A stretch of DNA of 49,229 nt. It comes from Clostridia bacterium (lineage in GTDB: Bacteria; Bacillota; Clostridia; Christensenellales; UBA3700). The notes beneath the pieces are model-generated. The model searched no databases and had not been told where the DNA came from. It saw nothing but the letters and a program-made list of their open reading frames with translations. Positions 1,333 to 46,626 of this stretch are shown piece after piece. How positions within the stretch are numbered: the first letter of the stretch is position 1; each line of letters opens with the position of its first letter. Made by a program: the position numbers and the translations under genes. The stretch lies in assembly GCA_036659935.1 (NCBI GenBank), contig JAVXBP010000003.1, positions 1 through 49,229 of the forward strand, in the 5' to 3' direction.

Positions 1333-1397
1333 AAAAACGCTTATATTTTTTTGTTTTTTCCATACATTTCCATATAAGAAAAACGCTTATATTTTTT
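1333..1397. repeat. Direct repeat (19 nt identical, period 46) spanning the Cof stop codon
   Basis: aaaaacgcttatatttttt at 1333-1351 and 1379-1397. Confidence 0.75.
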
Positions 1398-2214
1398 GTT
1401 CTTTCAAGCAAAATTTCTCGATAATTTGCGCAACAGCGTTGTCGTTGCAATCTTTTGCGATAAAGTCGGCGCATTCTTTTGTCTTGTCGAAAGCGTTTGC
1501 GACAGCCACGCCAAGACCGCCATAAGATATCATCGAGATATCGTTTTCCGAGTCGCCAATACAAATAATTTCTTCTCTGTCGAACCCGCATTCTTTGCAA
1601 ATTTGAGCGACAGCCTTGCCCTTGTTGATATCTTTGGGCATAAGTTCCAAAATAGTTTTGCCAGACTTTGCAAAGTCAATCTTGTCGCCAAAAAGTTTTT
1701 CGCCATTGCGAGCGATTGTTTCCGTGCCACTTTCCGTCGACAAAACAATCAATTTTGTTGGCAAAACGCCCGTTGTAGAAAAATATTCTTCCAAACTCAT
1801 ATTGAGCGGAGTATAATCAATCGCGCAAATTTTTGCAAACAAGTCAAAATATTCACTTTTGCAAGTGGTAAAACATTTGTCGTCATAATAAAAACCAACA
1901 AACGCGTCTTGGAGCGAGTCAATATATTTTGCCGCGGCAAGAGAAAGTTGGCTGTCAAAAGTGTAGCCATAGAGTTCTTTTTCGCTGGCTATATCATAAA
2001 TTCCGCCCCCTTGACGAACGATAACTTCGCCGTCAAAAAGCTCAAGCGCATTCAAATGCAGTTTTATTGAGCGGAACAACCTGCCCGTCGCGATTACAAA
2101 CTTGCCGCCATTGGCGATATATTTGTGTATCGCGCTTTTGTCTTGTTGAGAGATAGTAAAATCATCTCTGTACAAAGTGCCATCAAAGTCACAAAAAATT
2201 GCTTTATATTTCAT
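1387..2214 (-). CDS. Cof-type HAD-IIB family hydrolase
   Basis: DFDGTL motif I, ATGR motif II, NKG and GDSENDISM motifs; start moved to ATG 2214 (MKYKAIFCD). Confidence 0.93.
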   Translation of the reverse strand: MKYKAIFCDFDGTLYRDDFTISQQDKSAIHKYIANGGKFVIATGRLFRSIKLHLNALELFDGEVIVRQGGGIYDIASEKELYGYTFDSQLSLAAAKYIDSLQDAFVGFYYDDKCFTTCKSEYFDLFAKICAIDYTPLNMSLEEYFSTTGVLPTKLIVLSTESGTETIARNGEKLFGDKIDFAKSGKTILELMPKDINKGKAVAQICKECGFDREEIICIGDSENDISMISYGGLGVAVANAFDKTKECADFIAKDCNDNAVAQIIEKFCLKEQKI

Positions 2215-2220
2215 ATATCT

Positions 2221-2249
2221 ATTGTAATATATTTCTTGCCTTTTGTCAA
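2221..2249 (-). promoter_or_regulatory. Sigma-A promoter of the Cof gene, leaderless geometry
   Basis: TTGACA-17nt-TACAAT-6nt-ATG, no SD. Confidence 0.8.
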
Positions 2250-2299
2250 TCTTTGTGGAAAGCAAATAGCGGTTTTTTGATTATTCGACAATTTGCAAC

Positions 2300-4147
2300 T
2301 TAATTGTTTTGCTCTTTGTGGAAATGTTGGAAAATGTTTTTCGCCAGCTCCAGCGTTATGCCTTTGACAACGGACAATTCTTCCACGCTGGCGGTTTTGA
2401 TATTTTTTATCGAGCCAAAGTTGGACAACAAAATTTTCGCTTTGCTCTCGCCGATACCTTCGATATCCAACAAAACGCTGTGTGTTTGGCGCTTCGCCCT
2501 TTGGTCGCGGTGGAAAGTAATCGCAAACCTGTGAGCTTCGTCGCGCAATCTTTGCAAGAGTTTTATCGCGTAACTCGACTTTGAAATAAAAACTGGGTTT
2601 GGGTTGTCGGGCAAATAAATATCTTCTTCGCGCTCGGCAAGACTGACAAATTGTATGCCGTCGATATCGAATTTGCGCGCGACTTCCATAACACTGCTCA
2701 GTTGTCCCTTTCCGCCGTCGATAACAATCAAGTCAGGTCGCGACTTAAAGCTTTCGTCCATTTCGTCCTTGTCGCACATATGAGTGAGACGCCTTTTTAT
2801 CGTTTCTTGCAAGCTGGCAAAATCGTTGTTGCCGTCAACGTCTTTTATTTTGAATTTGCGATAATGTTGCCTGCGTGGCAGTCCGCTCTCGAAAACAACC
2901 ATTGAGCCGACCTTGTCCGTGCCTTGTATATGCGATATATCATAACACTCCATTCTCAACGGCATTTTTTTCATTTGCAACACTTCTTGCAACTGCATAA
3001 CCGCGCCTATGGTCATATTGTCCTCTCTTTCTTGCATCGAAAGTGACTTTGTAAGATAATCTTGCGCGTTGTTCTGAGAAATGTCGGCAAGTTGTCGCCT
3101 TACGCCTTGTTTTGGGCAAACAATATTCACCTTTGAACCTTTTTGTCCCGACAAATATTCCGTCAAAACGTCCACGTCTTCTATCTCGATTGCTGTTATA
3201 ATCTCTTGCGCAATATAACTTATTGTGTCATAATAACGCATAATAAAGTTGCTCAAAACCACTTTTTCGTCTTGAATTATATCGAAAACAATTTGTTTGT
3301 CTCCGCCGACAAGCTTGCCACCGCGAACAAACAAAACCGAAACAACTGTGTTCAAGCCGTTGGACGCGATAGAAAAAATGTCCATATCGAAATCTTTTGG
3401 CAAGGCTGTGACTTGCTTTCTGACAAGTTTGTCCAAGACGGCAAGTTGCTTTTTGTAATCAAGCGCAAGCTCATAATTTTCGTTTTCTGACGCGCAAAGC
3501 ATTTTATCTTCTAACAATTTGGTCACATTCTTATCATTGCCGTTCAAAAACGCGATGACTTCTTCAATAATTTTGCCATATTCTGCCGCGGAAATTTTGC
3601 CTACGCACGGCGCTTTGCACTTTTCCATATGATAATTGAGACATGGACGGAAAGCGCGCGGAAGCTTTGCAAAGTCGTGCTTGCAAGTTCTGAGCGGAAA
3701 GGCAAAATGAATCAAATCAAGAATATCTTTGCTCGATATCCCCTGCATATATGGTCCAAAATATCGCGCGCCGTCATTGCGCAGCTTTCTGATAACTTCT
3801 ACGCGTGGAAATTGTTGCTTGACGTCAATGCGAATAAACGGATAACTTTTGTCGTCTTTGAGCAAAATGTTGTACGGCGGTTTATGTTTTTTGATAAGAT
3901 TGTTTTCGAGAACGAGCGCCTCAATCTCATTGCGCGTGATAATATAATCAAAGTCAGCAATTTTGCTTACCATAGCCAAAACTTTGTTTGTTTTGTTGCC
4001 GAAACTGTTGAAATATTGACTAACTCTGTTTTTGAGAACTTTTGCCTTGCCAATATAAAGTATTTGCTTCTCAGCAGAATACATAATATACACACCGCTT
4101 TGCAGTGGCAAGTCCTTAAGTTTTTCTTTTATTTTCTCGAATTCCAT
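2300..4147 (-). CDS. uvrC: Excinuclease ABC subunit C
   Basis: GIY-YIG N-terminus (GVYIM..YIGKAKVLKNRVSQYF), RMECYDISH, PDLIVIDGGKGQL, LRDEAHRFA, C-terminal HhH. Confidence 0.98.
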   Translation of the reverse strand: MEFEKIKEKLKDLPLQSGVYIMYSAEKQILYIGKAKVLKNRVSQYFNSFGNKTNKVLAMVSKIADFDYIITRNEIEALVLENNLIKKHKPPYNILLKDDKSYPFIRIDVKQQFPRVEVIRKLRNDGARYFGPYMQGISSKDILDLIHFAFPLRTCKHDFAKLPRAFRPCLNYHMEKCKAPCVGKISAAEYGKIIEEVIAFLNGNDKNVTKLLEDKMLCASENENYELALDYKKQLAVLDKLVRKQVTALPKDFDMDIFSIASNGLNTVVSVLFVRGGKLVGGDKQIVFDIIQDEKVVLSNFIMRYYDTISYIAQEIITAIEIEDVDVLTEYLSGQKGSKVNIVCPKQGVRRQLADISQNNAQDYLTKSLSMQEREDNMTIGAVMQLQEVLQMKKMPLRMECYDISHIQGTDKVGSMVVFESGLPRRQHYRKFKIKDVDGNNDFASLQETIKRRLTHMCDKDEMDESFKSRPDLIVIDGGKGQLSSVMEVARKFDIDGIQFVSLAEREEDIYLPDNPNPVFISKSSYAIKLLQRLRDEAHRFAITFHRDQRAKRQTHSVLLDIEGIGESKAKILLSNFGSIKNIKTASVEELSVVKGITLELAKNIFQHFHKEQNN

Positions 4148-4182: not shown

Positions 4183-4237
4183 GGTATATTTGCAATTTTA
4201 TTTTGGAGTTTTTTCTTTGTAATTTTTCTTGACTTTG

Positions 4238-4321
4238 CGACCGACCGCGGTCAAGCGTTTTTTGAACAATATTTCACGGTAATTTTATTGGCAAATCGAC
4301 CGACCGCATTCAAGCGTTTTT
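4238..4321. repeat. Direct repeat (23/25 nt, period 59) spanning the ArsR-gene stop codon
   Basis: cgaccgaccgcggtcaagcgttttt (4238-4262) vs cgaccgaccgcattcaagcgttttt (4297-4321). Confidence 0.85.
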
Positions 4322-4684
4322 CTTGGAATATATTCCATTTGACTTGTTCAAATTGTCCACGCCCGTCAACATAACGTCATTGACAAAAGGATTGACAATT
4401 CTATACATTATCATTCTCCCTTCTCGACGCGATTCCACAATGCCACTGTCGCGCAAAAGTTTGAGCTGATGAGAAATTGTGGTTTGATTCTGTTCCAACA
4501 AAACGCACAAATCAAGCACGCAAAGTTCCGTAACCGACAGCGCGGACAAAATTTTGAGCCTTGTGCTGTCAGAAAAGACAAAATAAAAGTTGGCAATGCC
4601 CTTCACCGCGCCATTCGGTGGCAAAAAATCTCTTATGCTTTTTTCCTGTTGCGAATTAAGCGTCAGGCACTCTTGAATATTCAT
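4310..4684 (-). CDS. ArsR/SmtB family transcriptional regulator
   Basis: FSDSTRLKILSAL..ELCVLDL..ISHQLKLLR..GIVESRREG winged-HTH signature; GAGGTG SD before ATG 4684. Confidence 0.93.
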   Translation of the reverse strand: MNIQECLTLNSQQEKSIRDFLPPNGAVKGIANFYFVFSDSTRLKILSALSVTELCVLDLCVLLEQNQTTISHQLKLLRDSGIVESRREGRMIMYRIVNPFVNDVMLTGVDNLNKSNGIYSKKNA

Positions 4685-4726
4685 ATATGCACCTCTGTTC
4701 ATTTATAGTTTTATAATATCACAGTA

Positions 4727-8101: not shown

Positions 8102-8506
8102 TTATGCAATGGTGCAAAGAACTGCGCCAGAATCGATGTTTGTTCCTACTTGAATGTTATATGTGATAACACCTGCGCTTGGCGCAACAATAGGAGTATC
8201 CATTTTCATAGCTTCGAGAATAACGATTTGTTCGCCAGCTTTGACTGTTGAGCCGTCAGCGACACAAAGCTTCTTGACAAGACCAGGCATTTGTGATTTT
8301 ACAGGCGCGCCGTTTGCAGGAGCGACATCTTTCTTTGCTACTGGAGCTGCCACTGGAGCTGCCACTGGAGCGGCAACTGGAGCGACTACTGGAGCAGCTG
8401 CTTGAGCGACTGCAGCGACAGGAGTTGCAACAACTCCGCTTGCTGATATTTCTTCTACTTCTACGGCAAAGCTTTTTCCGTTTACATTAACATTAAATTT
8501 ACGCAT
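8102..8506 (-). CDS. Biotin carboxyl carrier subunit of Na+-pumping decarboxylase
   Basis: VNVNGKSFAVEVEE N-terminus, Ala/Pro-rich linker (APVA repeats), EAMKM biotinylation motif. Confidence 0.95.
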   Translation of the reverse strand: MRKFNVNVNGKSFAVEVEEISASGVVATPVAAVAQAAAPVVAPVAAPVAAPVAAPVAKKDVAPANGAPVKSQMPGLVKKLCVADGSTVKAGEQIVILEAMKMDTPIVAPSAGVITYNIQVGTNIDSGAVLCTIA

Positions 8507-12462: not shown

Positions 12463-12825
12463 TTATTTTTTGCTGTTTTTGAAAAAATCTATTGACGCTG
12501 TTACCAAGTCTTTCCATTTTTCTCCCACCTCGCCTTTGTCAATTCTGAGCAACGTTTGTCTGTCGTCTCGGCACACAAGAAAGCCAATCGGCGTGATTGT
12601 CATGCCACCGCCACCACCGCCCGCAAACGGCAAAACGCTCTGCGAGCTTTCGTTCTTTTCGCTGTATTGTCCCCCACCGCTCGCAATGCCAACTGTAATC
12701 TTTGACAAGGGAAATATCATCGTTCCGTCTTGCATAGAAATCGGCTTGCCCGCAATGTTGTCGCTCTCAATAACATTCTTGAGGCTGTCAAGAGTCGACG
12801 TCATTATATCTTCCAATTTATCCAT
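12463..12825 (-). CDS. ytfJ: Sporulation protein YtfJ/GerW family
   Basis: GKPI..DGT..P.SKITVGIASGG, PFAGGGGGGMTITPIGFLV. Confidence 0.92.
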   Translation of the reverse strand: MDKLEDIMTSTLDSLKNVIESDNIAGKPISMQDGTMIFPLSKITVGIASGGGQYSEKNESSQSVLPFAGGGGGGMTITPIGFLVCRDDRQTLLRIDKGEVGEKWKDLVTASIDFFKNSKK

Positions 12826-12917
12826 AAATTCTCCTTTGCTTCAATATGAGCAATTCGACTTGACAACAATGTCGCCACTTTTTTCACCTTTTTTGACTGT
12901 CCATTGCGCCTTCCAAA

Positions 12918-13592
12918 TTATTCATTAATTCTCCTTTTCTTTAATATGCGTAAAGCGGAAAAAAATATTTGCGCAAGTCCGAACTTTATCAATATATCAA
13001 AATTAATTTTCAAATTGTTCTTTTGAGCATTTGTGTAAATATTAATATTTTTTTCTATCGGGTCAAAAAACTTGTTCGCAAGACCATTCGCAACGCCCAC
13101 CATCAATTCGGACGCGCCAAAAACAAGCCCTGTTTTCATCAAATCTTCGCTCGAGTATGCAAAATTGATATTGAGTCTATCAATCACAATTTGAGCTCGC
13201 TCAAGCTCATTTGCGAGCTCACGCAAGATTGTAAAAACATTTTCTTTGTCATTTTTGTTTTTGTTTTTATTTTTGCTATTTTGAGAATTTTCTTTTTTTC
13301 GAGCGACTTTTTTGCTGTCATTATACTTTTGCATTTTCAACTGCTTTTTCGCTTGCATTTTTTGTATAATATCAGTAAGTCGCGCAATATTTTTTTTGTT
13401 TATTTGGATATAGAATTTTCGTTTGCACTCAAAAATTTTAATCTTGAAAAGTTTAATCTTGTTCAAAATTATTATATCAACGCACAATGCCCCAAGCGAC
13501 GCGTCAAAATAGCCTTGCGCGCGCACACCGCACGCAAAGAAAATCAAAATGCATTCTGCAATTATCAAAAATATCAAAAAAAATAGCGCCAT
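12918..13592 (-). CDS. DUF2953/YtfI-like membrane-anchored protein
   Basis: N-terminal TM helix, D...TG..FG motif, position between scpB and ytfJ. Confidence 0.7.
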   Translation of the reverse strand: MALFFLIFLIIAECILIFFACGVRAQGYFDASLGALCVDIIILNKIKLFKIKIFECKRKFYIQINKKNIARLTDIIQKMQAKKQLKMQKYNDSKKVARKKENSQNSKNKNKNKNDKENVFTILRELANELERAQIVIDRLNINFAYSSEDLMKTGLVFGASELMVGVANGLANKFFDPIEKNINIYTNAQKNNLKINFDILIKFGLAQIFFSALRILKKRRINE

Positions 13593-18980: not shown

Positions 18981-19143
18981 TCAACTGTTTGTATGCGGAA
19001 AATATTCCAAAATGTAATCGTTCAAAAAGTCAAAGCCGACAATATCGCCTAGCTTATCTCTCGGTAAAGACTTCTCAATTTTTGTGCAGAAAATGTCTCA
19101 AAATGTAATCGTGCAAAAAGTCAAAGCCGACAATATCACCTAG
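18981..19143. repeat. Diverged tandem copy of the deoB 3' end (core 43/45 nt, period 91)
   Basis: 19008-19052 vs 19099-19143; the downstream copy reads LGDIVGFDFLNDYILEYFPHTNS*. Confidence 0.93.
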
Positions 19144-20365: not shown

Positions 20366-20989
20366 ATGAGAAAACGCATACTTGTAAACAAATTTCACTT
20401 CAACAAACGATATTTTTGCAGAAACTTGCTTTGCTGTCTAGAATTTCGGTGGAGCGTTTTTTTGCAAACTTTTTGTTTTTTTGCGATAGGTTTGGTCATC
20501 GGTTTTGTGATAGGCGGACAATTGGACGGCGAAACATCGTCATTTTGTCCATACGCAAACATAGGAGATTGCGAGTTTTCTTTTTTCGGCAATTTTGGCG
20601 CGCTTGCCCTGCTTATGCTTTTGCTGTTCGCGATTTGCTCGTTGAATATCGCCACAAAGTGTATGTATTTCTCTTATGTAACGGCGTGCGTATATCTCGG
20701 CTATCGTTTTGCGTTGTCAATATTGCAAGTTTTTTCTTGTTCAATTTTCCTTGGCGTATTGTCAATGGCAATTTATTTTGTTCCATTCGTTTTGCTTTTG
20801 ACCGCGACAATGAGTGTGTTGCTGTCTTTCCAATCGCAATATTGGTTGCGGACTTGCGCCCTGCAAACTTGTTGGAAAATATGGCGAAAAAACTTCTTTT
20901 TTTGCCTTGGAATTTGGCTTTTTGTGACTTGTTGCCTGCTCGTGATAGCAGTCATAATTCCACTGTTCTACAAATTCGTTTTTCTATAA
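20366..20989 (+). CDS. Multi-pass membrane protein, SpoIIM-like, Cys-rich
   Basis: About 200 aa with roughly 5 TM segments, FAIGLVIG, FFGNF and VIIPLF at SpoIIM-like positions; next to deoB-dacF, where spoIIM lies in Bacillus/Clostridium. Confidence 0.55.
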   Translation: MRKRILVNKFHFNKRYFCRNLLCCLEFRWSVFLQTFCFFAIGLVIGFVIGGQLDGETSSFCPYANIGDCEFSFFGNFGALALLMLLLFAICSLNIATKCMYFSYVTACVYLGYRFALSILQVFSCSIFLGVLSMAIYFVPFVLLLTATMSVLLSFQSQYWLRTCALQTCWKIWRKNFFFCLGIWLFVTCCLLVIAVIIPLFYKFVFL

Positions 20990-21037: not shown

Positions 21038-21074
21038 AAAAAAAGAACCGCTCACCATTACGATGCGCGGTTCT
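21038..21074 (-). terminator. Intrinsic terminator after rny (possibly bidirectional)
   Basis: agaaccgc..gcggttct stem with an adjacent A7 tract (U-tract on minus). Confidence 0.75.
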
Positions 21075-21087: not shown

Positions 21088-21202
21088 TCGCAGCTTATTT
21101 GCATATTCTGCGTGTTTTACTTTGAAAGTGTTCGCAGTTTATTTGCATATTCTGCGTGTTCTTTTGAGGTTTTCAGAGCTTATTTTGCATACTCTGTGTG
21201 TC
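21088..21202. repeat. Three tandem ~29-nt copies (period ~43-44) of the rny terminal codons
   Basis: tcgcagcttatttgcatattctgcgtgtt (21088), tcgcagtttatttgcatattctgcgtgtt (21132), cagagcttattttgcatactctgtgtgtc (21174, the gene end). Confidence 0.9.
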
Positions 21203-23994: not shown

Positions 23995-23997
23995 TTT

Positions 23998-26770: not shown

Positions 26771-29700
26771 CGTCGTTTTCTCTCATTTTTATTTCTTCCA
26801 CTTCTTCTTCTGACAGAGTAAACATTCTGCTTTTGCCTTCCACTTTGACATAGTGCATATCCACCAACCAATCGAAAAGTTTTGCCGCGCGCGGATAGCC
26901 GACGCCCAATTTTTTCTGGAACAAGGTGACTGAAATGTTGCTATTCCAACGCAAACAAGTTTCCAACACTTCTATACACAGCTTGTCAGGCAGTGACGAT
27001 TGGCGTTTTTCGACAGGAATTTCTTCTTCTTCCTTTTTCTTCATAATAACGCTTTCTATGTTTTCGTCATAGTAATTTTCGTTGCGTTCGCGCACTTGTT
27101 TAAGCACGGCTTTTATCTCTGGGTTGTCGATAAACGCGCACTGAATTCTGCGTGGCGACGACATATTTTCGCCGAGATAAAGCATATCGCCCATGCGCAA
27201 AAGTTTTTCCGCGCCGTACATATCGAGAATGGTTCTGCTGTCTGCCCCACTCGAAACGCTGAATGCGATTCTCGTTGGCAGGTTGGCTTTGATTGTGCCC
27301 GTGATAACGTCAACTGACGGCCTTTGCGTCGCAAGAATAAGGTGTATTCCCGCCGCGCGCGCTTTCGCAGTCAAACGCTTTATAAGGCGCTCAAATTCCT
27401 TGCCTGTCTTGGACAAAATGATATCGCCGACCTCGTCGACAACAATCAAAATATATGGCATTTTTTCTTCGCCAGCGCTCAACTCTTTGTTATATTCCGA
27501 TATTTTGCTCACGTCTTTGTCAGCAAACTTGTGATAGCGTTCTTCCATCTCGTTGACAGCCCACTCAAGCGCGTTGATAACTTGTTGATCTTCTGTAATG
27601 ATGTTTGGCAACAACAAGTGTGGAATGTCGCGATATTTGTTGAATTCGACGACTTTTGGGTCAATCAAAATCAAGCGCAATTCTTGTGGCGAATATTTGT
27701 AAAGCAAGCTGCAAATCATTGCGTTGAGACAAACTGACTTGCCCGTGCCTGACGCGCCTGCGACGAGACCGTGCGGAAAGCCCGATATATCCGAGACATA
27801 ACACGTGCCGTCGATATCTTTTCCAAGCGCAAAAAACAGCCCTTTTGCAGGGTCAACATTGTTGAATTTTGGGCTTGTAATGATAGACTTCAAGCCAACA
27901 ATTCCGCTTTTGTGGTTAGGAATTTCTATACCGCAAAAACTCTTGCCAGGTATCGGCGCTTCTAGGCGCATTTGTGGAATTTCCAACCACATTGCCATAT
28001 CGTTAGCCTTGGCGGTGACCTTGCTCAACTCGGTTGTTGTCTCGAACTCAAGTCGAGAGAATCGCGGACCTTTGACAACGTTGATAACCTTGACATCAAT
28101 GCCAAAGCTCTTCATTTTTGACTCGAAAACTTGAATTTTTTCGTCAATATTGATATCGTCGTCGACGTTTTCGACATAATCGACAAGACAGCTGAGATCA
28201 GGCGGACAATAAGGCGAAATTTTCCTTGGTGGAGCGGTCACAATCGGCTTAACAACTTGCGTATTGTTTGCGTTTTGTCCGCCAAACGATATTGTCGGCT
28301 TGCCGTCGCCAGCATTATTGATTGAATTGTTGTAAGAATTGCCATTTGAATTGCCACTCAAATTGCCGTTTGCGTTGTTGTAAGAATTCCCGTTGTTCGG
28401 CTTGTAAGAATTGTTGCCGTTGTTGGAATTGTTGTTTGCGTTGTTGTAAGAATTATTTCCATTGCTTGAATTGTTGCTCACGTTGCCATTTGCGTTGCCA
28501 TAAGAATTGTTGCCATTGTTGGTCGAGGTTTGTCCACTCTCGCGTCTCGCCAGCATCTCGCGCTTTTTTTGCTCCAACAGCGCGCGTCTTTCTTCTCTTT
28601 CCGCGAGCATTTTTTCTTCTTTTATATCATTAAGCTTGCGTTCAATATCAGCGTTTTGCTCAGGTTTTTGAGCAAGCATATCGGCAATATTTTGCATAGG
28701 TTCTGGGTTTGTCGATGTTTGGTTGTCAATCTCTCTGCTGTCATTGTCAATGTTGTCCAATTGCTCAATCTCGTCACTTTCGTCGCTTTCCGTTGCAAAA
28801 TTCTTGTTGGAAACGTCAAAATTCGATTGAAAATTTTTCTCCATTCTTTCCAAAAAACTTGCCGTCGAGGAGCTTTGTTCGTTTGCATTATCCTCGTCAA
28901 CATGGTTTATTTTGTTGAGATTTTTTTCTATTTGTTCAAGGCGATGATTGTTGCAATAAGCCTTATATTCCATTGAATTGTCGACTTCTTTTGGCTTTTC
29001 GATTGTGGCGTTGTTTGTCGACTGCGGACGAACATAAGTGGAATTTTCGCCACGCAATTTGTTTTTTATCTCTGACGCGTCGACCTTTTTGTTGCCGCGA
29101 TTTGTTGCCGCGGACGAGTCGGAATATAATATTTCCAACGCTTTTTCTCTCGCGCTGTTAATCTTGTCGTCAACGTCGCTCGGGTCGACAAGGAACTCGT
29201 CATTTCCACTCTCCCCGACGATTTGTTCGTCAAGGTCGTTGAGTTCGTTTTCGAGTGGCACGTATGATATCGGCTTGTCCGCAAACTTGCGTGATATGTT
29301 GTCAGACAATTGCTTGCCACTGATTGTGCCATTGTAAAGCTTGCGGTCGTCTTGTTCTTGCGCGCTTTCTGCCACACGCTGATTTGGCTTGCGCATAACA
29401 ACATTTTGAACATTCTTTTTGTTCTTGTTTTTTCTTCCAACCGACTTAAAATTGATATCATATTTCAATTGCGCGACAATTATCAACGCGACCACGCCCA
29501 CCAAAAGCAGCGCAAAAAGTGACATTCCCAACGCGAACAATTTCGCAAAAGGATAGAACATTACTCCGCCAAGCGCACCGCCAGCCGTGTTGTGATTGAC
29601 ATAACAAGCCTTGATATAATCGCCATAAGACAGCGCCGACAATTCTCTCGCCGTGCCAAGGTGACACATTGCGACAATCAAAAACATCATCGCGATATAC

Positions 29701-29957
29701 AGAAAAATAACTCCGCCCGAACGCGACGGACGTTGCCCAAAAATATAAAGCAAGCCTATCGCCACGCCACCAAAAGCCAAGCCATAAATAGAATAGCCAA
29801 AAGTCCCCAACAGAAAATTTTTGACATAGTCGCCAGACTTGCCAAAAACGCCGCACATAATCAACGCAAGCAAACCAAACAGCCCAAAATATATCAAGCC
29901 ATTTAGAAACTTGCTGTCATTTACCTTTTCTTTTTTTGCATTTTTCTTCTTCGACAT
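26754..29957 (-). CDS. ftsK: DNA translocase FtsK/SpoIIIE
   Basis: N-terminal TM domain, long linker, PHGLVAGASGTGKS, LILIDPK, IVVDE, RAAGIHLILATQRPSVDVITG, gamma domain QKKLGVGYPRAAKL. Confidence 0.97.
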   Translation of the reverse strand: MSKKKNAKKEKVNDSKFLNGLIYFGLFGLLALIMCGVFGKSGDYVKNFLLGTFGYSIYGLAFGGVAIGLLYIFGQRPSRSGGVIFLYIAMMFLIVAMCHLGTARELSALSYGDYIKACYVNHNTAGGALGGVMFYPFAKLFALGMSLFALLLVGVVALIIVAQLKYDINFKSVGRKNKNKKNVQNVVMRKPNQRVAESAQEQDDRKLYNGTISGKQLSDNISRKFADKPISYVPLENELNDLDEQIVGESGNDEFLVDPSDVDDKINSAREKALEILYSDSSAATNRGNKKVDASEIKNKLRGENSTYVRPQSTNNATIEKPKEVDNSMEYKAYCNNHRLEQIEKNLNKINHVDEDNANEQSSSTASFLERMEKNFQSNFDVSNKNFATESDESDEIEQLDNIDNDSREIDNQTSTNPEPMQNIADMLAQKPEQNADIERKLNDIKEEKMLAEREERRALLEQKKREMLARRESGQTSTNNGNNSYGNANGNVSNNSSNGNNSYNNANNNSNNGNNSYKPNNGNSYNNANGNLSGNSNGNSYNNSINNAGDGKPTISFGGQNANNTQVVKPIVTAPPRKISPYCPPDLSCLVDYVENVDDDINIDEKIQVFESKMKSFGIDVKVINVVKGPRFSRLEFETTTELSKVTAKANDMAMWLEIPQMRLEAPIPGKSFCGIEIPNHKSGIVGLKSIITSPKFNNVDPAKGLFFALGKDIDGTCYVSDISGFPHGLVAGASGTGKSVCLNAMICSLLYKYSPQELRLILIDPKVVEFNKYRDIPHLLLPNIITEDQQVINALEWAVNEMEERYHKFADKDVSKISEYNKELSAGEEKMPYILIVVDEVGDIILSKTGKEFERLIKRLTAKARAAGIHLILATQRPSVDVITGTIKANLPTRIAFSVSSGADSRTILDMYGAEKLLRMGDMLYLGENMSSPRRIQCAFIDNPEIKAVLKQVRERNENYYDENIESVIMKKKEEEEIPVEKRQSSLPDKLCIEVLETCLRWNSNISVTLFQKKLGVGYPRAAKLFDWLVDMHYVKVEGKSRMFTLSEEEVEEIKMRENDGDDSE
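28313..28525 (-). repeat. Asn-rich NGN(N)SY coding repeats in the FtsK linker
   Basis: taagaatt core at 28333, 28381, 28405, 28447, 28501. Confidence 0.85.
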
Positions 29958-34002: not shown

Positions 34003-35250
34003 CTATTTTTTTGATATTACTTGAGCCTTTTTAATTTTTTGCAAATTTTTATTTGCCAGTTCAATATATATTTGTTCGACCATTTTTACGGTGTTTTTTA
34101 TATCATAATTTTTTATTTTTTCATTGAAAGTCGCCTTTCTGTCACACTTTTTTTCGACGATAATTTTCGCCCACTCCTGCGGTGATTGAGCGAGAGAAAG
34201 CGCAAAGCACTTGTTAGAAAAAACCCCTTCTTCCGCTATCACTCCACTGTGGAAAACATTTACGCCCGACGCTTGCGCCTCTTGCCCGACAAGGCTCAAC
34301 CCCTCGAACAGCGACGGAAAAACAAAGGCGTCCATTCCTTGCAACAGCTCGTTTACATTGTCGCGCGCGCCAAGAAACTTGACTTTGCTTTCTATTTGCA
34401 AGTCGCGAGCAAGCAATTTTATTTGGTTTTCCAACTCGCCTTTTCCGACAAGCCACAATTGCGAATTTTCTCTCAACTTGCAAACTTCCGCAAATATTTC
34501 CAAGAGAAACTTATGGTTTTTTTGACCGTCCAATCGCCCCACGTGACCGATTACAAACTCGTCGTTTGCGTTCAATTCTTGCCTGACTTTTTCTCGGGCT
34601 TTTTGGTCGAATGCAAATTTGTCCAACTCAACGCCATTGTTTATGACAAAAATTTTTTCTTTTTCAACCGCTTGCTCGCAAACTTCAAATTTGTCCAACT
34701 CAATGTTGTTTTTTATGTTCGCAATTTTTCCATTTTCCGTCGTTCGCTTTTTTGTCGCGCGCTTGCCATAGAGCCATTCTGACGCGCCGACGGAACACGC
34801 AAATCGCGTAATATTTTTCTTGGGGACAAAGGGCTTGAATATCTTGTGCAACAGCGGACGCGGAGCGTTGGAGTTGTGACTGTGCGTGATAATATTTGCA
34901 AAGCCAGCCTTGCGAAACTCTCGTACGCTCACACAAAAGCTAAAAGCGTGACAATTGTGCAAATGAACAACGTCATATTCGCGCGCAATCGCTTTCAAAA
35001 ATTCGATATTCGCGCGACTTGAGAAAAAATATTTTGTTATTTTGTTACCCTTTTTTATTTGTGGCAAAAAAAGAATTTTTCCGCCCAAAGCGCAAATTTC
35101 TTGGTCAAAATCAAACGGCCTTTTGTCCGAACAAAGAAAATCAAATTGGAATTTTTCCCTGTCAATATTGCGGAAAAGATTCATTACAAACGTCTCTTGT
35201 CCGCCACGATCCATGCTCGGAAGGCATTGCAAAACTTTTATTTTTGTCAT
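34003..35250 (-). CDS. Glycosyltransferase, GT-B/GT4 (EpsF-like)
   Basis: MDRGGQETFVMN..RNIDR, HSHNS, GHVGRL..QKNH.FL, FPSLFEGL..EAQASG. Confidence 0.92.
   Translation of the reverse strand: MTKIKVLQCLPSMDRGGQETFVMNLFRNIDREKFQFDFLCSDKRPFDFDQEICALGGKILFLPQIKKGNKITKYFFSSRANIEFLKAIAREYDVVHLHNCHAFSFCVSVREFRKAGFANIITHSHNSNAPRPLLHKIFKPFVPKKNITRFACSVGASEWLYGKRATKKRTTENGKIANIKNNIELDKFEVCEQAVEKEKIFVINNGVELDKFAFDQKAREKVRQELNANDEFVIGHVGRLDGQKNHKFLLEIFAEVCKLRENSQLWLVGKGELENQIKLLARDLQIESKVKFLGARDNVNELLQGMDAFVFPSLFEGLSLVGQEAQASGVNVFHSGVIAEEGVFSNKCFALSLAQSPQEWAKIIVEKKCDRKATFNEKIKNYDIKNTVKMVEQIYIELANKNLQKIKKAQVISKK
34614..34740 (-). repeat. In-frame 72-nt (24 aa) internal duplication
   Basis: caaatttgtccaactcaa at 34614-34631 and 34686-34703; protein NNIELDKF vs NGVELDKF. 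Confidence 0.85.
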
Positions 35251-35262: not shown

Positions 35263-36747
35263 TTATTTGCCGACGAATTCCCACAAAAAGCTTAATTCTT
35301 GCAGTTTGTCGACAAAGAAATATCCGTTGAAATATAATAGCAATCTCGCGGTCAAATATGCCGTCATAAACAAACTTGTGCATATATATGGAATTGATAT
35401 TTTGCAATCAATCGCAAGCTTGTTTTTCTTGAATATAACGGCGTCGCTCACACAATGACGGAGCTCGAAAAGTACGTTTTTCGTATTTTTCGTATTTTGC
35501 TTATTTTGCGCGCTTGCTGTTCGGCATATCCTATTTGCAAAATTTTCTTCTTTGAACTTCTGCAACATATAAGGAATTATAACCACAAAACCTAGCTCAA
35601 TGAGTATTGACATTCTTCCGAACACTATAATTTTGTAGCTTATCATTCCGACTGCAAAGCCAAGAACCATATAGATTACCGCCAACAAAACGCTGTTTTT
35701 GTCGCAAAAAGTGTGGTTGTAGACTGCGATTATCGCAAACATAGGCAAGAAATATACAAACTGCGCGACGCCAAAATTTGCGCCCAAATCTTCCAAAACA
35801 TATTGATATTTTTGCATAAACGGAATTGTCTCTATCGCGAGTGGCAAAAGCGTGAGCGCGCCAATTGTACCGACAAGAAATATCATTGCTATCAAGGAAT
35901 ATTGTTGATAATCTTGCAGTTTTGAGCTTTTGAATATCCTGAAAATTATCATCGGAACAAACATCATCAGCGAAGTATAATGAATGGAAAAAGCAATCGC
36001 GACAAACAAAATTGCAAGTGTTTTTTTGTCCTTGCAAAGAAAGTATCCCGACAGCAAACAAAGCGCCGCCGACAAATATATTCTTGTCAAATTGAACATT
36101 TGGAAATAGAATATCGACACATACATCAACACTGCAAAACCAATATTTATTTGTTGTCGCAACAAAAATATTACAACAAAATTGAGCGCGACGACAAAAA
36201 CTGATATCACCGCGACCACAACATAAGGGTTGACAAAAACCGCTTTCAAAACAATACAAATAAGCTCAAAGCCAAATTCGAGTTGCGGGTCAAGCAGGCT
36301 TTGCCACGTCACCTTGTCAATAATATTTGTATATGATTCTCTGTCCATGCCCGTCACCGCCAAAAACGCGAACAGCGCAAGCGTGAGAAAACTGAGCGAA
36401 AAAAATAAATAACTGAACTTATTTTGCGTCTCCAGCGCTTTACTTTTGCCACTCGGAGAACTACTTTTTGCATTGTTGATTTGTGGTTCTTTTGTATTGC
36501 TTTTTCCATTTTGAAAGCTATTTTTTATATTAGTTATTTGTACCTTTTTCGGTTTATTATTATCATTTTGAAAGCTATTTTTTATATTACTTATTCGTGG
36601 CTTTATTGTTATGTTTTTATCATTTTGCAAACTACTTTTTGACTTGAGCGATTGCGACAAAAATGCAAAAACAACGGCGACAACTGCCACCGCCAAATAT
36701 ATAAACAAATTGATAATATACTGACTGTTTGCAAAAATTTCTTTCAT
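35263..36747 (-). CDS. EpsG-family polysaccharide polymerase (Wzy-like)
   Basis: Multi-TM, G.D..SY, EFGF, FNLTR..L, A.SIHYTS, and position in a GT/flippase cluster. Confidence 0.82.
   Translation of the reverse strand: MKEIFANSQYIINLFIYLAVAVVAVVFAFLSQSLKSKSSLQNDKNITIKPRISNIKNSFQNDNNKPKKVQITNIKNSFQNGKSNTKEPQINNAKSSSPSGKSKALETQNKFSYLFFSLSFLTLALFAFLAVTGMDRESYTNIIDKVTWQSLLDPQLEFGFELICIVLKAVFVNPYVVVAVISVFVVALNFVVIFLLRQQINIGFAVLMYVSIFYFQMFNLTRIYLSAALCLLSGYFLCKDKKTLAILFVAIAFSIHYTSLMMFVPMIIFRIFKSSKLQDYQQYSLIAMIFLVGTIGALTLLPLAIETIPFMQKYQYVLEDLGANFGVAQFVYFLPMFAIIAVYNHTFCDKNSVLLAVIYMVLGFAVGMISYKIIVFGRMSILIELGFVVIIPYMLQKFKEENFANRICRTASAQNKQNTKNTKNVLFELRHCVSDAVIFKKNKLAIDCKISIPYICTSLFMTAYLTARLLLYFNGYFFVDKLQELSFLWEFVGK
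36420..36645 (-). repeat. Four degenerate 57-nt (19 aa) tandem units inserted after TM1 of the polymerase
   Basis: cattttgaaagctattttttatatta identical at 36507 and 36564, weaker copies at 36450 and 36621. Confidence 0.85.
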
Positions 36748-44131: not shown

Positions 44132-44141
44132 ATAATCTCCT

Positions 44142-45725
44142 TTAATAGTTGTCAGGCAAGTCGTTTTGCAAGAGCAACACATCACCGCTTTTGAGCAGTG
44201 TTGCAAACAATTCTTGAGCTTTTGCAAGACTGTCCGTCAAAAATATTTTGTTTTTGTCAAAGTTTTTGCTCAAAACTCCCTTTTGTAGATTGTATGCGTT
44301 GCGCCCGATTAATATTGCAATATCTGCAATTTCTGCAATTTTTTGTCCGAGAATATAGTTTTCTTCCACTTCTTTTGCGCCCAATTCGACAAGCCCTTGC
44401 GACGCGACAATTTTTCTTCCGACAAACAAACCGAGAGTTTCCAGCGCAAGACGAGCGCCGTCGGGGTTGGAATTGTAGCCGTCGTCAATGATTGTTATGC
44501 CACTTGGCGTGCGCGAGCGTTGCAACCTGTGGTCGACTTGCGGAATTGTCGTGATTGCTTTGACGATATTTTCCCCGTCCATTCCGCAATGTCGCGCCAT
44601 CGCCACGGCGAGAATTATGTTGTCAACGTTGTGTTTCCCTATCAATTGAGTGCGCGCTGAGAAAGTTTCTCCATCGATAATCAAATCGAATTTTCCGCCG
44701 TTTTCGTCACAAATTATGTTTTTTGCGCAAATATTTTGGTCAATTCCGAGCGCAAACTTCTTACATTTTCTGCCGTAGAGAGCGTTTTTGCACCACGCGT
44801 TGTTGCAATTTATTACCGCAAAACCGTTTTCGCCAAGGCTGTCAACCAACTCAAATTTTGTCCGCGCTATGCTTTCCATATCGCCAAAAGTCGCAAGATG
44901 TTGCGCCGCGACGCCAGTAATTATACCGCAAGTTGGGTGAACAAAGTCGCAAATTTCTTTGATATCGCCGACATTGCGCGCGCCCATTTCGACAAGAAAA
45001 ATTTCCGTGTCAGACGGCATAATTTGCGCCGACTTGCAAATGCCCATTGGCGTGTTATAGTTGAAAGGAGTCGCAAAAACCTTGAACTTTGTCGCGAGAA
45101 TATGCGTCAAAATTTGCTTGACGCTCGTCTTGCCACAACTGCCAGTGATGCCGACAATTTGCAAGTTTTCTCTTGCCTTGAGCGACCGCTCGCAAGCCTT
45201 TTTGTACTTGTTTTTTATCATTTTTTCCAATGGATAATTTATCAAAAGCGACAATTGCACAAACATTTGGAAAAATATCATTACAAACGGAAAGTAAGCC
45301 AACAAAAGTGAGTTTCCTTGAATTTTTGTCGCCAAACCAAGAAAAAGCAAGGCGATATTCGCGCCAAAAACAAGCAATGCAAACGTTGTCAACAACCTTT
45401 TCATTCTGCTTGTATAAGCAATTTGTGGCTTTATTTTTTGCTTGTTGTTCGAATAAATAAAATAGCAAATCAGCCACGCCGCGAACGGCAAAGAAAAATA
45501 TTGCGCGTATGCAACTCCGAGCGTGCATACGACCATATTGCAAATATAGCCCACGCCCAACACAGCAACACCACAACAACAAATGCGAGCGAACAACTCT
45601 TTTTGTCTGCCCGCGCGCACATATTTATAACCTTCCAACTGCGCCAAATTGAACATAGGAATAGCGTAGAAAAATTCAAGAAAACTACTTGCTGTCGCGA
45701 CAATCAAAATTGTCCAAATTTGCAT
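44142..45725 (-). CDS. murF: MurF-family ligase with an N-terminal multi-TM extension
   Basis: VGITGSCGKTSVK, NYNTPMG, VEMGAR, HRLQ, IDDGYNSNPDG, GLVELG, LLQNDLPDNY; AGGAG SD before ATG 45725. Confidence 0.9.
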   Translation of the reverse strand: MQIWTILIVATASSFLEFFYAIPMFNLAQLEGYKYVRAGRQKELFARICCCGVAVLGVGYICNMVVCTLGVAYAQYFSLPFAAWLICYFIYSNNKQKIKPQIAYTSRMKRLLTTFALLVFGANIALLFLGLATKIQGNSLLLAYFPFVMIFFQMFVQLSLLINYPLEKMIKNKYKKACERSLKARENLQIVGITGSCGKTSVKQILTHILATKFKVFATPFNYNTPMGICKSAQIMPSDTEIFLVEMGARNVGDIKEICDFVHPTCGIITGVAAQHLATFGDMESIARTKFELVDSLGENGFAVINCNNAWCKNALYGRKCKKFALGIDQNICAKNIICDENGGKFDLIIDGETFSARTQLIGKHNVDNIILAVAMARHCGMDGENIVKAITTIPQVDHRLQRSRTPSGITIIDDGYNSNPDGARLALETLGLFVGRKIVASQGLVELGAKEVEENYILGQKIAEIADIAILIGRNAYNLQKGVLSKNFDKNKIFLTDSLAKAQELFATLLKSGDVLLLQNDLPDNY

Positions 45726-46401
45726 AAACACTCCTACAAAAACTTCCCAAGACAGCGATAAATTTCCACTTATCATCTATATAAGCAAAATGTCCGCCAC
45801 GCAAAACAACAATTTCGCTGTTTTTTATGCGTTTTTTTAACTTTTTTGCCATATAGAAAGGCGTTTCTTTGTCTTGTTTTCCCCAAATGATAAGAGTTGC
45901 GCAATATATCATATGCAAATATTTTTCCAAATGTTCATTTACAATATTTTTGAAAGTTGCTTTCGTCACGCTGTCAAGCGCGCGATAATCGGGCGAGCCA
46001 CACTTGGACAAGTCGCGTTTGCAAAGCTTCAGAATGGAATATTTCAACTTGCGCGCGCAATATTTCAAACCGCGTCTTGGCTTCAAACCGGCGCTGTCAA
46101 CAAGAACAATCGCCCGAGCGAGGCTCGTCGTCGCCGACAACAAAGTCGCAACCCTTCCGCCAAACGAGTGTCCGACAAAAACTGCTTTTTCTATGCCAAG
46201 TTGACAAAGCAAGTCAATTACTCCTTGCGCATAATCGTCCAGTGTCAGCGCTTTTTCTCCCACCTGCAAGCTGTGCAAGTCAACAAAAACGCACCGAAAG
46301 TCACAAAAAAAATCGGCTATCCATTCAAAACTATCAATTCCACCGCCCCAGCCGTGCAAGAATATGATATTTTCTCCTTTGCCGATTGATAAATATTGCA
46401 A
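45685..46401 (-). CDS. Alpha/beta fold hydrolase
   Basis: FLHGWG, VGHSFGG (GxSxG), LVDSAG, WG.QD.ETP, GGHFAY; TTG start with GAGGA SD. Confidence 0.92.
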   Translation of the reverse strand: MQYLSIGKGENIIFLHGWGGGIDSFEWIADFFCDFRCVFVDLHSLQVGEKALTLDDYAQGVIDLLCQLGIEKAVFVGHSFGGRVATLLSATTSLARAIVLVDSAGLKPRRGLKYCARKLKYSILKLCKRDLSKCGSPDYRALDSVTKATFKNIVNEHLEKYLHMIYCATLIIWGKQDKETPFYMAKKLKKRIKNSEIVVLRGGHFAYIDDKWKFIAVLGSFCRSVYANLDNFDCRDSK

Positions 46402-46412
46402 ATCGTCCTCAC

Positions 46413-46626
46413 TTATTGGTCGAATTTGTCAACTTTTGTATTCTTTTTATTGTCGCATTTTTTCTTACGAATTTTGCAAAAAAAATTTATTTGTCGCATT
46501 TACAAGCTTTCGTTTTCTATGTTATAGTCTAATTTTTTTCTTTTTATTTTCTATAATATCGTCTCAGTTTTTCTTACGAATTCTACAAATAAAGTTCACT
46601 TGTCGCATTTGTCAACTTTTGTTTTC
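46413..46626. repeat. Two diverged downstream copies of the rimI 3' end
   Basis: 46568-46626 (gene end) vs 46459-46517 (period 109) and 46413-46443 (26/31 nt vs 46596-46626). Confidence 0.85.

What the first reader, a model, noticed from the sequence alone, without database searches (positions are those of the whole stretch)
1333..46626. Recurrent stop-codon 'echoes': unrelated genes are each followed by diverged tandem copies of their own 3' end
Seen: Cof (period 46), ArsR (59), deoB (91), rny (3 copies, ~44), ftsK (96) and rimI (3 copies) each have one or two downstream copies of the last 4-23 codons, usually including the stop and flank. Weaker cases occur after the deacetylase (~31497-31590) and the flippase (32402-32453). 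The units share no sequence with each other, so this is not a dispersed repeat family. Several differences are synonymous or swap TGA/TAA, and the in-frame stop is often kept. Inference: the copies look like displaced 3' ends of other alleles, e.g. scars of homology-facilitated illegitimate recombination or gene-end replacement, or products of a lineage-specific short-duplication process that survive only where tolerated. I know of no named system for this pattern.
Basis: partly seen in the sequence, partly recalled or inferred. Interest (0 to 1): 0.8.

Follow-up and report, generated by a model that had tools for sequence, protein, structure and literature searches.

The report
Decaying tandem duplications past gene ends
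The repeated gene tails are real, but they are one visible part of an unusually heavy load of short tandem duplications across this gut bacterium's genome, which survive wherever they do no harm, such as just past a stop codon.

Summary
Six of the eight named echoes are real and far above chance: Cof, ArsR, deoB-like, rny, ftsK and the GNAT/rimI-like gene. I found a seventh at 12810-12953. The two "weaker" cases (deacetylase, flippase) are at chance level.

The echoes are not a stop-codon system. The genome is a 1.44 Mb Christensenellales MAG and holds 277 short tandem-duplication loci (period 20-200 nt). None appear at control offsets.
- 141 are intergenic.
- 62 lie inside genes, and 61 of those have a period divisible by three.
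- 55 span a stop codon, 8 span a start, and 11 span both.

The units are unrelated to each other. Young two-copy loci carry 3-13 nt microhomology arms. Mismatches between the coding copy and the echo show no codon-position bias (48/46/63). Repeats cover 9-12% of every spacer class but are depleted in the ~60 nt upstream of starts.

Best reading: in-situ microhomology-mediated tandem duplication or slippage, filtered by selection. The echoes are decaying non-coding copies. The allele-end replacement idea is not supported.

Density is about 192 loci/Mb, against 0-20/Mb in five larger samples of relatives. A non-sister genus of the same family (G006) shows the same density and pattern. No cause was found: seven replication or repair families are present in all five genomes compared, and an eighth (recQ) is over cut-off in none.

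The parts
1304..1405 (-). End of the Cof-type HAD hydrolase gene (1387..2265), its stop and flank, plus one downstream echo; period 44-46
   Evidence: TRF period 44, 2.3 copies, 84% matches. 19 of 19 identical at offset 46, 1333-1351 vs 1379-1397. Pfam Hydrolase_3.
4224..4321 (-). Last 3 codons and stop of the ArsR-family gene (4310..4702) with its flank, plus one echo 59 nt downstream
   Evidence: D14: 39 nt, 79%, spacing 59; the 12 nt including the stop are identical. Pfam HTH_5.
12810..12953 (-). 100-nt-period pair spanning both the stop of ORF 12918..13592 and the ribosome-binding site and start of the YtfJ-family gene 12463..12825. The upstream copy carries a decoy start.
   Evidence: D10: 44 nt, 84%, spacing 100; score 42 vs shuffled maximum 25. 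One 2124-nt contig of run X1 covers 11992-12841 and 12913-14114, with a same-length diverged stretch between.
18988..19146 (-). Last 22-23 codons of the deoB-like metalloenzyme gene (19075..20196), plus an echo 91 nt downstream
   Evidence: D5: 68 nt, 87%; score 91 vs shuffled maximum 25; the echo is found as a second protein match, 71% over residues 350-373.
21088..21208 (-). End of rny (21180..22904) plus two downstream echoes, period 42-44. The two echoes are more alike (97% over 29 nt) than either is to the coding copy.
   Evidence: period 44, 2.8 copies., D7 and D16. Sequence read.
21038..21074 (-). Terminator-like hairpin with a U-run, lying after the two rny echoes. In relatives the equivalent hairpin follows the stop within about 10-20 nt.
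   Evidence: Fold of -20 kcal/mol, z = -4.35, 0 of 200 shuffles as good. Relatives' 3' flanks. The consensus terminator scan did not call it.
26605..26770 (-). End of ftsK (26754..29957) and flank, an echo at offset 96, and a third partial copy at offset 162
   Evidence: 26627-26674 vs 26723-26770, 81%; 31-nt match, score 32 vs shuffled maximum 30. Sequence read.
46419..46638 (-). End of the GNAT (rimI-like) gene (46596..47093) and flank, plus two echoes at offsets 109 and 183
   Evidence: D4: 82 nt, 77%, spacing 109; 25 nt at 46419-46443, score 40 vs shuffled maximum 31.
8325..8420 (-). In-frame 12-nt repeat, 6 copies, inside ORF 8102..8506. Same process, tolerated because it keeps the frame.
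   Evidence: D1; class CDS.
28305..28539 (-). In-frame repeats (periods 12, 21, 24 and 42) inside ftsK
   Evidence: D2, D3 and D8..
34614..34703 (-). In-frame 72-nt duplication inside ORF 34003..35250
   Evidence: offset 72, 18 of 18 identical.
36479..36640 (-). In-frame 57-nt repeat, 2.8 copies, inside ORF 35263..36747
   Evidence: period 57, score 191..

Best explanation
The echoes are decaying, non-functional products of ordinary in-situ tandem duplication. The likely mechanism is replication slippage or template switching between short direct repeats, known as microhomology-mediated tandem duplication. This genome carries an unusually large number of such duplications.

Duplications of about 20-200 nt arise anywhere, and selection then removes most of them.
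- Inside genes, only frame-preserving ones survive.
- In spacers they are largely neutral.
- A unit that spans a stop codon leaves the protein unchanged, because the first copy still ends the gene. The second copy stays behind as an untranslated echo and drifts.
- Units that touch the ~60 nt upstream of a start or the start itself (promoter, ribosome-binding site, start codon) are mostly purged. This produces the excess of stop-spanning over start-spanning loci.

Shown: the repeats, their genome-wide distribution, the frame rule, the microhomology arms, the lack of codon-position bias, and the lineage-specific density. Inferred: that the stop/start asymmetry is due to selection rather than targeting, and that the high load reflects a raised duplication rate.
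For: - Non-random local duplication: 557 hits at offsets 20-200 vs 0 at control offsets 1020-1200.
- 277 merged loci covering 33.7 kb: intergenic 141, CDS 62, stop 55, start 8, both 11. Random placement expects 24, 211, 16, 16 and 10. TRF loci give the same picture: 87/37/28/8/6 of 166.
- Frame rule: 61 of 62 loci inside genes have a period divisible by 3, against 48 of 141 intergenic and 12 of 55 stop-spanning loci.
- Stop-spanning loci reach a median of only 23 nt into the gene and 81 nt beyond it.
- No codon-position bias in mismatches: 48/46/63, p = 0.28. The mismatch spectrum is ordinary, with 95 of 157 transitions.
- Repeats cover 12.3%, 10.6% and 9.2% of co-directional, convergent and divergent spacers. 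Cover is 2-5% in the 0-60 nt upstream of starts against 7-10% downstream of stops, and equal (about 8%) beyond 100 nt.
- 243 of 277 units have no other copy in the genome.
- Of 15 young two-copy loci (identity >=95%), 11 carry a partial third copy of >=3 nt (3-13 nt), and the arm sequences differ between loci.
- Relatives' rny genes end in EYAK and a stop, directly followed by a terminator. Here two echoes sit between the stop and the terminator.
- Replication in another genome: G006 has 114 loci in 401 kb: intergenic 72, stop 24, CDS 14 (14 of 14 in frame), start 3, both 1.
- Published frame of reference: microhomology-mediated duplications arise de novo in bacteria and are depleted from coding regions (PMC13167724, passages read).
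Against: - No raw reads were available. The only run found (X1) is held as contigs of a related strain, so junctions and copy-number variation in the source population are unverified.
- Gene calls are my own ORF- and codon-score caller. It missed at least one real gene (20366..20989 on the plus strand), so the intergenic count is somewhat inflated and start positions are approximate.
- The microhomology evidence rests on only 15 young loci.
- Selection as the cause of the stop/start asymmetry is inferred, not shown.
- No genetic cause for the high load was found. The polA 5'-nuclease, mutS, mutL, recJ, xseA, dinB and rnhB families are present in both repeat-rich genomes and in all three repeat-poor genomes compared. 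recQ is over cut-off in none of the five.
- Both clear repeat-rich genomes are fragmented MAGs (78% and 75% complete), so a technical contribution cannot be fully excluded.
Confidence: 0.8

Rival explanations
1. The duplications arise as above, but the excess at gene 3' ends over 5' ends is mutational. Terminator hairpins, transcription-replication encounters or R-loops at gene ends would stimulate slippage there. On this reading, selection does not need to purge start-proximal events.
For: Stop-spanning loci outnumber start-spanning loci 55 to 8 and 24 to 3 in G006. In co-directional spacers of >=100 nt, 69 of 101 repeats lie nearer the stop side. The rny echoes lie next to a strong hairpin.
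Against: Divergent spacers, which have no gene ends, carry almost as much repeat as convergent ones (9.2% vs 10.6%). Cover on the two sides is equal beyond about 100 nt, and the deficit is confined to the ~60 nt upstream of starts. That pattern looks like protection of promoter and ribosome-binding-site DNA rather than targeting of terminators.
Confidence: 0.12
2. The echoes are kept because they do something in the 3' untranslated region, for example as back-up stops, extra terminator or stability elements, or binding sites for a protein or RNA.
For: Many echoes lie between the stop and the terminator and would be transcribed. 40 of 49 echoes still have a stop codon at the homologous place. 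The Borg repeat paper raises a regulatory RNA role for its intergenic repeats (10.1101/2022.05.18.492195, passages read).
Against: The identical stop is kept in 33 of 49 loci, no more than the 74% expected from average identity. The stop-to-stop swaps are explained by constraint on the functional copy alone. Units share no sequence: 243 of 277 are unique. Identity runs continuously from 100% down to the detection limit of 76%. None of the 17 closest rny loci in relatives has such a repeat.
Confidence: 0.05
3. The echoes are displaced 3' ends of other alleles, left by homology-facilitated illegitimate recombination or gene-end replacement.
For: Copies are diverged (76-100% identity). In the deoB-like echo one residue (the Y of EYF) matches relatives better than the coding copy does (RHF).
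Against: Mismatches show no third-position excess (48/46/63, p = 0.28). At another site of the same deoB-like echo the coding copy (NLG) is the one that matches relatives. The rny echoes carry a 1-nt deletion that removes the stop (sequence), and relatives end like the coding copy. Identical-looking repeats are commoner in pure spacer DNA and follow the frame rule inside genes. Young loci have microhomology arms, as expected of in-situ duplication.
Confidence: 0.03
4. Assembly artefact: strain variants were concatenated, or repeats were mis-assembled, in a fragmented MAG.
For: 155 contigs and 78% completeness. 28 of 277 loci lie within 30 nt of a contig end. The other clearly repeat-rich genome (G006) is also fragmented: 240 contigs, 75% complete.
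Against: An artefact would not respect reading frames (61 of 62 in G000, 14 of 14 in G006). It would not avoid coding DNA (62 observed vs 211 expected) or the ~60 nt upstream of starts. Strain variants would differ mainly at third codon positions, which is not seen. An independently assembled contig of a related strain in run X1 keeps the 100-nt-period pair at 12810-12953. Repeats breaking contigs is the expected consequence of real repeats.
Confidence: 0.03
5. Diversity-generating retroelement pairs: a variable repeat at the gene end with its template repeat just downstream.
For: The geometry is similar, with a diverged copy of a gene's 3' end lying close downstream.
Against: No reverse transcriptase (PF00078) was found in the genome, which is 78% complete. 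The echo base is A at 53 of 157 mismatches, against a 43% share of A among aligned bases, so there is no adenine-specific pattern. The genes involved are unrelated housekeeping genes. Most loci are not at gene ends at all.
Confidence: 0.01

Closest known systems
Microhomology-mediated tandem duplication / replication-slippage duplications (Wei et al., PNAS 2026, PMC13167724, passages read; bioRxiv 10.64898/2026.02.28.708716, abstract and outline read)
   Same: Head-to-tail duplication of a unique segment flanked by a few bases of microhomology. Units are often under 50-100 nt. The events arise de novo in bacteria, behave as mostly neutral, and are depleted from coding regions by purifying selection. 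They can seed multi-copy tandem repeats.
   Different: Here I see only fixed, mostly diverged products in one assembly, not de novo events. Density is 10-20 times that of most relatives sampled. A term search of that paper found no occurrence of 'stop codon' or 'intergenic', so the stop-versus-start asymmetry may not be described there. Its supplements were not seen.
Borg tandem repeats (bioRxiv 10.1101/2022.05.18.492195, passages read)
   Same: Pervasive, genome-specific repeats that are nearly absent from related genomes. All repeats within ORFs have unit lengths divisible by three, while only 14-38% of intergenic ones do. [quoted passage not shown] Partial repeats flank the arrays, and repeats terminate contigs.
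   Different: As analysed in that paper, Borg repeats have at least 3 units, are perfect or nearly so, and are A-rich. They sit on archaeal extrachromosomal elements, and about half lie in ORFs. Here the median is 1.9 copies at 93% identity, the loci are on a bacterial chromosome, and only 62 of 277 lie in genes.
Ehrlichia ruminantium non-coding tandem repeats (Microbe Profile PMC10710844, passage read; the primary papers of Collins 2005 and Frutos 2006 are not held)
   Same: A small bacterial genome with active expansion and contraction of tandem repeats in non-coding regions.
   Different: That genome has about 64% coding and long spacers. This one is about 86% coding, with coding fraction and spacer lengths like those of its repeat-poor relatives.
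Diversity-generating retroelement variable/template repeat pairs (definition recalled, not from a call)
   Same: A diverged copy of a gene's 3' end lies just downstream of the gene.
   Different: No reverse transcriptase was found, there is no adenine-specific mismatch pattern, and many unrelated genes and pure spacers are affected.

Membership tests
Microhomology-mediated tandem duplication products | Direct head-to-tail copies of an otherwise unique segment | tested here: met
   557 hits at offsets 20-200 vs 0 at control offsets. 243 of 277 units have no other copy in the genome.
Microhomology-mediated tandem duplication products | A short microhomology arm, seen as a partial extra copy at the end of a fresh two-copy duplication | tested here: met
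   11 of 15 young two-copy loci have arms of >=3 nt (3-13 nt). The other four have -1, -1, 1 and 2 nt. PMC13167724 gives about 1.6% as the random expectation for arms longer than 3 bp. The sample is small.
Microhomology-mediated tandem duplication products | No site-specific motif at the junctions (a generic replication error, not an enzyme with a target site) | tested here: met
   Arm and flank sequences of the 15 young loci differ from each other. Only 31 weak pairwise matches were found among the 277 units.
Microhomology-mediated tandem duplication products | Depletion from coding DNA, with survivors preserving the frame | tested here: met
   62 loci in CDS vs 211 expected, 61 of 62 divisible by 3. 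In G006, 14 of 14.
Microhomology-mediated tandem duplication products | De novo occurrence and reversion, visible as copy-number variants within a population | not testable with these tools
   Only contigs of one run with a related strain were available. There were no raw reads.
Diversity-generating retroelement | A reverse transcriptase gene in the genome or near the repeats | tested here: not met
   PF00078 gave 0 matches in G000, which is 78% complete.
Diversity-generating retroelement | Differences between the two repeats concentrated at adenines of the template copy | tested here: not met
   The echo base is A at 53 of 157 mismatches, while A makes up 43% of aligned bases.
Dispersed repeat families (REP/MITE-like) | The same unit recurs at many loci | tested here: not met
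   34 of 277 units have any other hit in the genome, and several of these are the same array split over contig ends.

The most novel reading that the evidence does not exclude
At least two non-sister lineages of one Christensenellales family (G000 and G006) may have independently become natural 'duplication-prone' bacteria. An as yet unidentified heritable change, for example in lagging-strand maturation, fork restart or the replicase, would have raised the rate of microhomology-mediated tandem duplication by ten-fold or more. That would have seeded about 10% of their spacer DNA and dozens of proteins with new repeats, without the genome-wide decay seen in Ehrlichia. The stop-codon echoes are then a by-product, and they also map where insertions are tolerated.
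Probability: 0.3. Interest if true: 0.6.

Novelty: new member of a known kind. Interest (0 to 1): 0.4.

Why it matters
- It replaces an apparently new stop-codon phenomenon with a known mutational process plus selection.
- It identifies bacterial lineages with 10-20 times more short tandem duplications than most relatives sampled. Such lineages are a natural setting for asking what controls this class of mutation in bacteria. In yeast the flap endonuclease Rad27 does (PMC13167724). Here the obvious candidate genes are all present.
- The survivors give a fine-scale map of tolerated insertions. Any frame-preserving site in some proteins, any spacer and the stop codon are open, while the ~60 nt upstream of start codons is protected.
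- In practice, such repeats break MAG assemblies (28 of 277 loci at contig ends) and can mislead gene-end annotation.

Tried and rejected
- Candidate causes of the high repeat load. The polA 5'-nuclease (PF02739), mutS, recJ, xseA, dinB, mutL and RNase HII families were found in all five genomes compared: G000 and G006 (repeat-rich), G026, G010 and G019 (repeat-poor). recQ was over cut-off in none of the five. No difference was found.
- PolA alignment over about 666 residues. In 15 of the 310 columns invariant in the three repeat-poor genomes, both repeat-rich genomes differ. By eye, the conserved acidic motifs of the 5'-nuclease domain are intact. I draw no inference from this.
- Reads. The one run found holds 27% of the sampled words and is kept as contigs of a related strain. 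It covers all 30 bins. No joint removes exactly one repeat unit. The joint 4213->4309 at the ArsR echo has unknown letters between its two sides and cannot be interpreted.
- Same-species contigs in JGI metagenomes, searched with the deoB-like protein: 69 pattern matches, none a relative.
- Papers. 'Christensenellales' plus 'tandem repeats' gave 2 papers, both on CO dehydrogenase. The phrase 'spanning the stop codon' did not occur in any of the 12 listed papers holding at least 3 of the 4 terms. The primary Ehrlichia papers are not held. Supplements were not seen.
- The ~1 kb stretch between rny and the deoB-like gene that my caller left empty holds a conserved plus-strand ORF, 20366..20989 (tblastx E = 1e-8 against G010). 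It is not gene-less.
- G004, the closest rny match (88%), could not be used. Its largest contigs have 58% GC and may belong to another organism.


Full report
WHAT THE WINDOW IS

The window is the whole of contig C3 of a 1,444,629-base, 155-contig genome. The genome is rated 78% complete with 1% contamination. The nearest public rny loci are Christensenellales / Christensenellaceae / Clostridia MAGs at 72-78% protein identity. No other genome of the same genus is held. Nearly all genes in the window lie on the minus strand.

CHECKING THE OBSERVATION

Six named echoes are real.
- Cof, 1304-1405: period 44-46.
- ArsR, 4224-4262 vs 4283-4321: spacing 59, 79%.
- deoB-like, 18988-19055 vs 19079-19146: spacing 91, 87% over 68 nt. 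A protein search also picks this echo up as a second hit, 71% over 24 residues.
- rny, 21088-21208: 2.8 copies of 44 nt.
- ftsK, 26627-26674 vs 26723-26770: offset 96, with a third partial copy.
- GNAT/rimI-like, 46419-46638: three copies at offsets 109 and 183.

I found a seventh case at 12810-12953 (spacing 100, 84%). It spans both the stop of one gene and the ribosome-binding site and start of the next.

The deacetylase and flippase cases score 17 and 19, against a shuffled 95th percentile of 21, so they are not above chance.

As a genome-wide chance control, ungapped self-alignment (+1/-2, score >=18) gives 557 hits at offsets 20-200 and 0 at offsets 1020-1200.

THE ECHOES ARE PART OF SOMETHING LARGER

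Merging the hits gives 277 loci covering 33.7 kb, which is 2.3% of the genome. I made gene calls with my own ORF- and codon-score caller: 1195 genes, 86% coding. It misses some genes, for example 20366..20989 on the plus strand.

| Class | Observed | Expected from random placement |
|---|---|---|
| Intergenic | 141 | 24 |
| Inside a gene | 62 | 211 |
| Spanning a stop | 55 | 16 |
| Spanning a start | 8 | 16 |
| Spanning both | 11 | 10 |

- Tandem Repeats Finder loci give the same picture: 87/37/28/8/6 of 166.
- Of the 62 loci inside genes, 61 have a period divisible by three. The figure is 48 of 141 for intergenic loci and 12 of 55 for stop-spanning loci.
- Stop-spanning loci reach a median of only 23 nt into the gene and 81 nt beyond it. 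They are essentially spacer repeats whose first unit overlaps the gene end.
- Repeats cover 12.3% of co-directional, 10.6% of convergent and 9.2% of divergent spacers, so they are not a 3'-end speciality.
- The difference is local. Cover is 2-5% in the 0-60 nt upstream of starts and 7-10% in the 0-60 nt downstream of stops. Both sides are about 8% beyond 100 nt.
- The 55:8 stop/start asymmetry (binomial p about 1e-9) is therefore best read as protection of promoter, ribosome-binding-site and start DNA. That reading is an inference.

HOW THE COPIES AROSE

- The units are unrelated to each other: 243 of 277 have no other hit in the genome.
- Identity between copies runs from 100% down to the detection limit of 76% (median 93%), and the median copy number is 1.9.
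- Among 15 young two-copy loci (>=95% identity), 11 end in a partial third copy of 3-13 nt. The arm sequences differ between loci. This is the arm-unit-arm-unit-arm layout of microhomology-mediated tandem duplication.
- Mismatches between coding copy and echo fall 48/46/63 on codon positions 1/2/3 out of 491/497/512 sites (p = 0.28). 95 of 157 are transitions, with no adenine bias.
- The identical stop is kept in 33 of 49 echoes, against 74% expected from average identity. The 7 stop-to-stop swaps need only constraint on the working copy.
- Relatives' rny genes end in EYAK and a stop, followed within about 10-20 nt by a terminator hairpin. Here the same ending is followed by two echoes and only then by the hairpin (-20 kcal/mol, z = -4.35). 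The echoes also carry a 1-nt deletion that destroys the stop.
- In the deoB-like pair each copy holds some states closer to relatives: NLG in the coding copy and EYF in the echo. This is what divergence of both copies after an in-situ duplication predicts.

These results argue against allele-end replacement, against a retroelement mechanism (no reverse transcriptase found) and against an assembly artefact. An artefact would not obey reading frames or avoid starts.

READS

One run (X1) holds 27% of the sampled words. It is kept as contigs and belongs to a related strain.
- It covers all 30 bins of window 1250-21240.
- One 2124-nt contig keeps the 100-nt-period pair at 12810-12953, with a same-length diverged stretch between the copies.
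- No joint removes exactly one unit.
- That strain also has 130 extra letters at 2293/2295, just past the stop of gene 2300..4147. It has a 9-nt insertion at 19147, the edge of the deoB-like unit.

This is weak independent support and no test of copy-number variation.

HOW UNUSUAL IT IS

G000 has 192 loci/Mb. The same scan on other genomes gave the following.

| Sample | Result |
|---|---|
| 17 closest rny loci, about 118 kb in all | 0 loci |
| G026, G010, G019, G037, G003 (same family, 66-100 kb each) | 10, 13, 12, 20 and 0 loci/Mb |
| G043 (same family, 14.7 kb) | 1 locus |
| G004 (same family, 100 kb of 58%-GC contigs, set aside as possibly another organism) | 7 loci |
| 20 further stretches, one each from 19 more family genomes and G004 contig C76 (3-20 kb each) | 10 loci in all; the highest is G011 with 3 in 20 kb, two of them adjacent |
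| 39 genomes from 39 other families of the order, 664 kb in all | 18 loci (27/Mb) |

- 37 of those 39 order-level samples have 0-1 loci. By comparison, the 23 20-kb windows of G000 hold 1-7 loci each.
- G006 is the exception within the family. It belongs to another genus and is also fragmented. It has 114 loci in 401 kb (284/Mb) with the same pattern: intergenic 72, stop 24, CDS 14 (14 of 14 in frame), start 3, both 1.
- A five-taxon PolA tree puts G000 with G010 and G026, and G006 with G019 (supports 0.83 and 0.97). The two repeat-rich genomes are therefore not sisters on this one marker.
- G097, in another family, has 66 loci in 420 kb (157/Mb), but 40 of them lie inside genes, 36 of those in frame. 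It has 6 stop-spanning and 0 start-spanning loci. This is a related but different picture.
- Coding fraction and spacer lengths of G000 and G006 resemble those of repeat-poor relatives. That fits a raised input of duplications better than a general relaxation of selection, but this is an inference.

CAUSE

The cause is unknown. The polA 5'-nuclease, mutS, mutL, recJ, xseA, dinB and RNase HII families are present in both repeat-rich and all three repeat-poor genomes tested. recQ is over cut-off in none. The PolA alignment shows nothing interpretable.

COMPARISON WITH WHAT IS KNOWN

- The process matches microhomology-mediated tandem duplication. It has been reported to arise de novo across bacteria, to behave mostly neutrally and to be depleted from coding regions (PMC13167724, passages read; preprint abstract and outline).
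- The genome-specific abundance recalls Borg tandem repeats. So do the divisible-by-three rule in ORFs, the first units lying within gene ends, and the repeats ending contigs. Those repeats, however, are perfect or nearly so, multi-copy and A-rich, and they sit on archaeal elements.
- Ehrlichia ruminantium shows active non-coding repeats but has only about 64% coding.
- 'Christensenellales' with 'tandem repeats' returned 2 unrelated papers. The phrase 'spanning the stop codon' was absent from the listed hits. Supplements and many subscription papers were not searchable.

VERDICT

The allele-scar reading is rejected, and the reading of a tolerated product of a lineage-specific duplication process is supported. 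This is a new, unusually dense instance of a known kind of mutation, not a new system. The open and more interesting question is why two non-sister lineages carry 10-20 times more of it than most relatives sampled.

Noticed in passing
window 4788-5114 (+), beside the divergently oriented ArsR gene 4310-4702 (-): A 108-residue ORF made almost entirely of Cys/Gly (CGCG-type) runs, with two hydrophobic segments and internal repeats (D6, D9, D11, D15 and D19). It has no NCBIfam match. The related strain in run X1 has a 6-nt in-frame insertion at 5057. It may be a metal-binding or modified peptide under ArsR control.
   Followed up: partly
window 48122-48250 (+): An FMN riboswitch (RF00050, 102 bits) upstream of the plus-strand ORF that ends at 49153. 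It was the only Rfam match in the window.
   Followed up: no
window 20366-20989 (+): A conserved ORF that looks like a membrane protein, on the strand opposite to its neighbours. My codon-score caller missed it. It is conserved in G010 (tblastx E = 1e-8), and it makes the rny 3' spacer a convergent one.
   Followed up: partly
window 2293-2295: The related strain in run X1 has 130 extra letters here, a few bases past the stop of gene 2300..4147. This may be a strain-specific echo or another insertion. The letters were not shown.
   Followed up: no
G000 contig C68:6381-6533: One 130-nt repeat unit has 19 further hits elsewhere in the genome, unlike nearly all other units. It may be a genuine dispersed element.
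   Followed up: no
G097 (another family of the order), loci L189 and L193-L212: 157 tandem-repeat loci per Mb. 40 of 66 lie inside genes (36 in frame), many with periods of 21-27 nt. This profile is rich in repeat-containing proteins and differs from G000 and G006.
   Followed up: partly
G034:C13:18869-18973: A separate 35-residue match (97% identity) to the RNase Y C-terminus, on a different contig from that genome's main rny match. It may be a contig-end duplicate or another gene-end copy.
   Followed up: no
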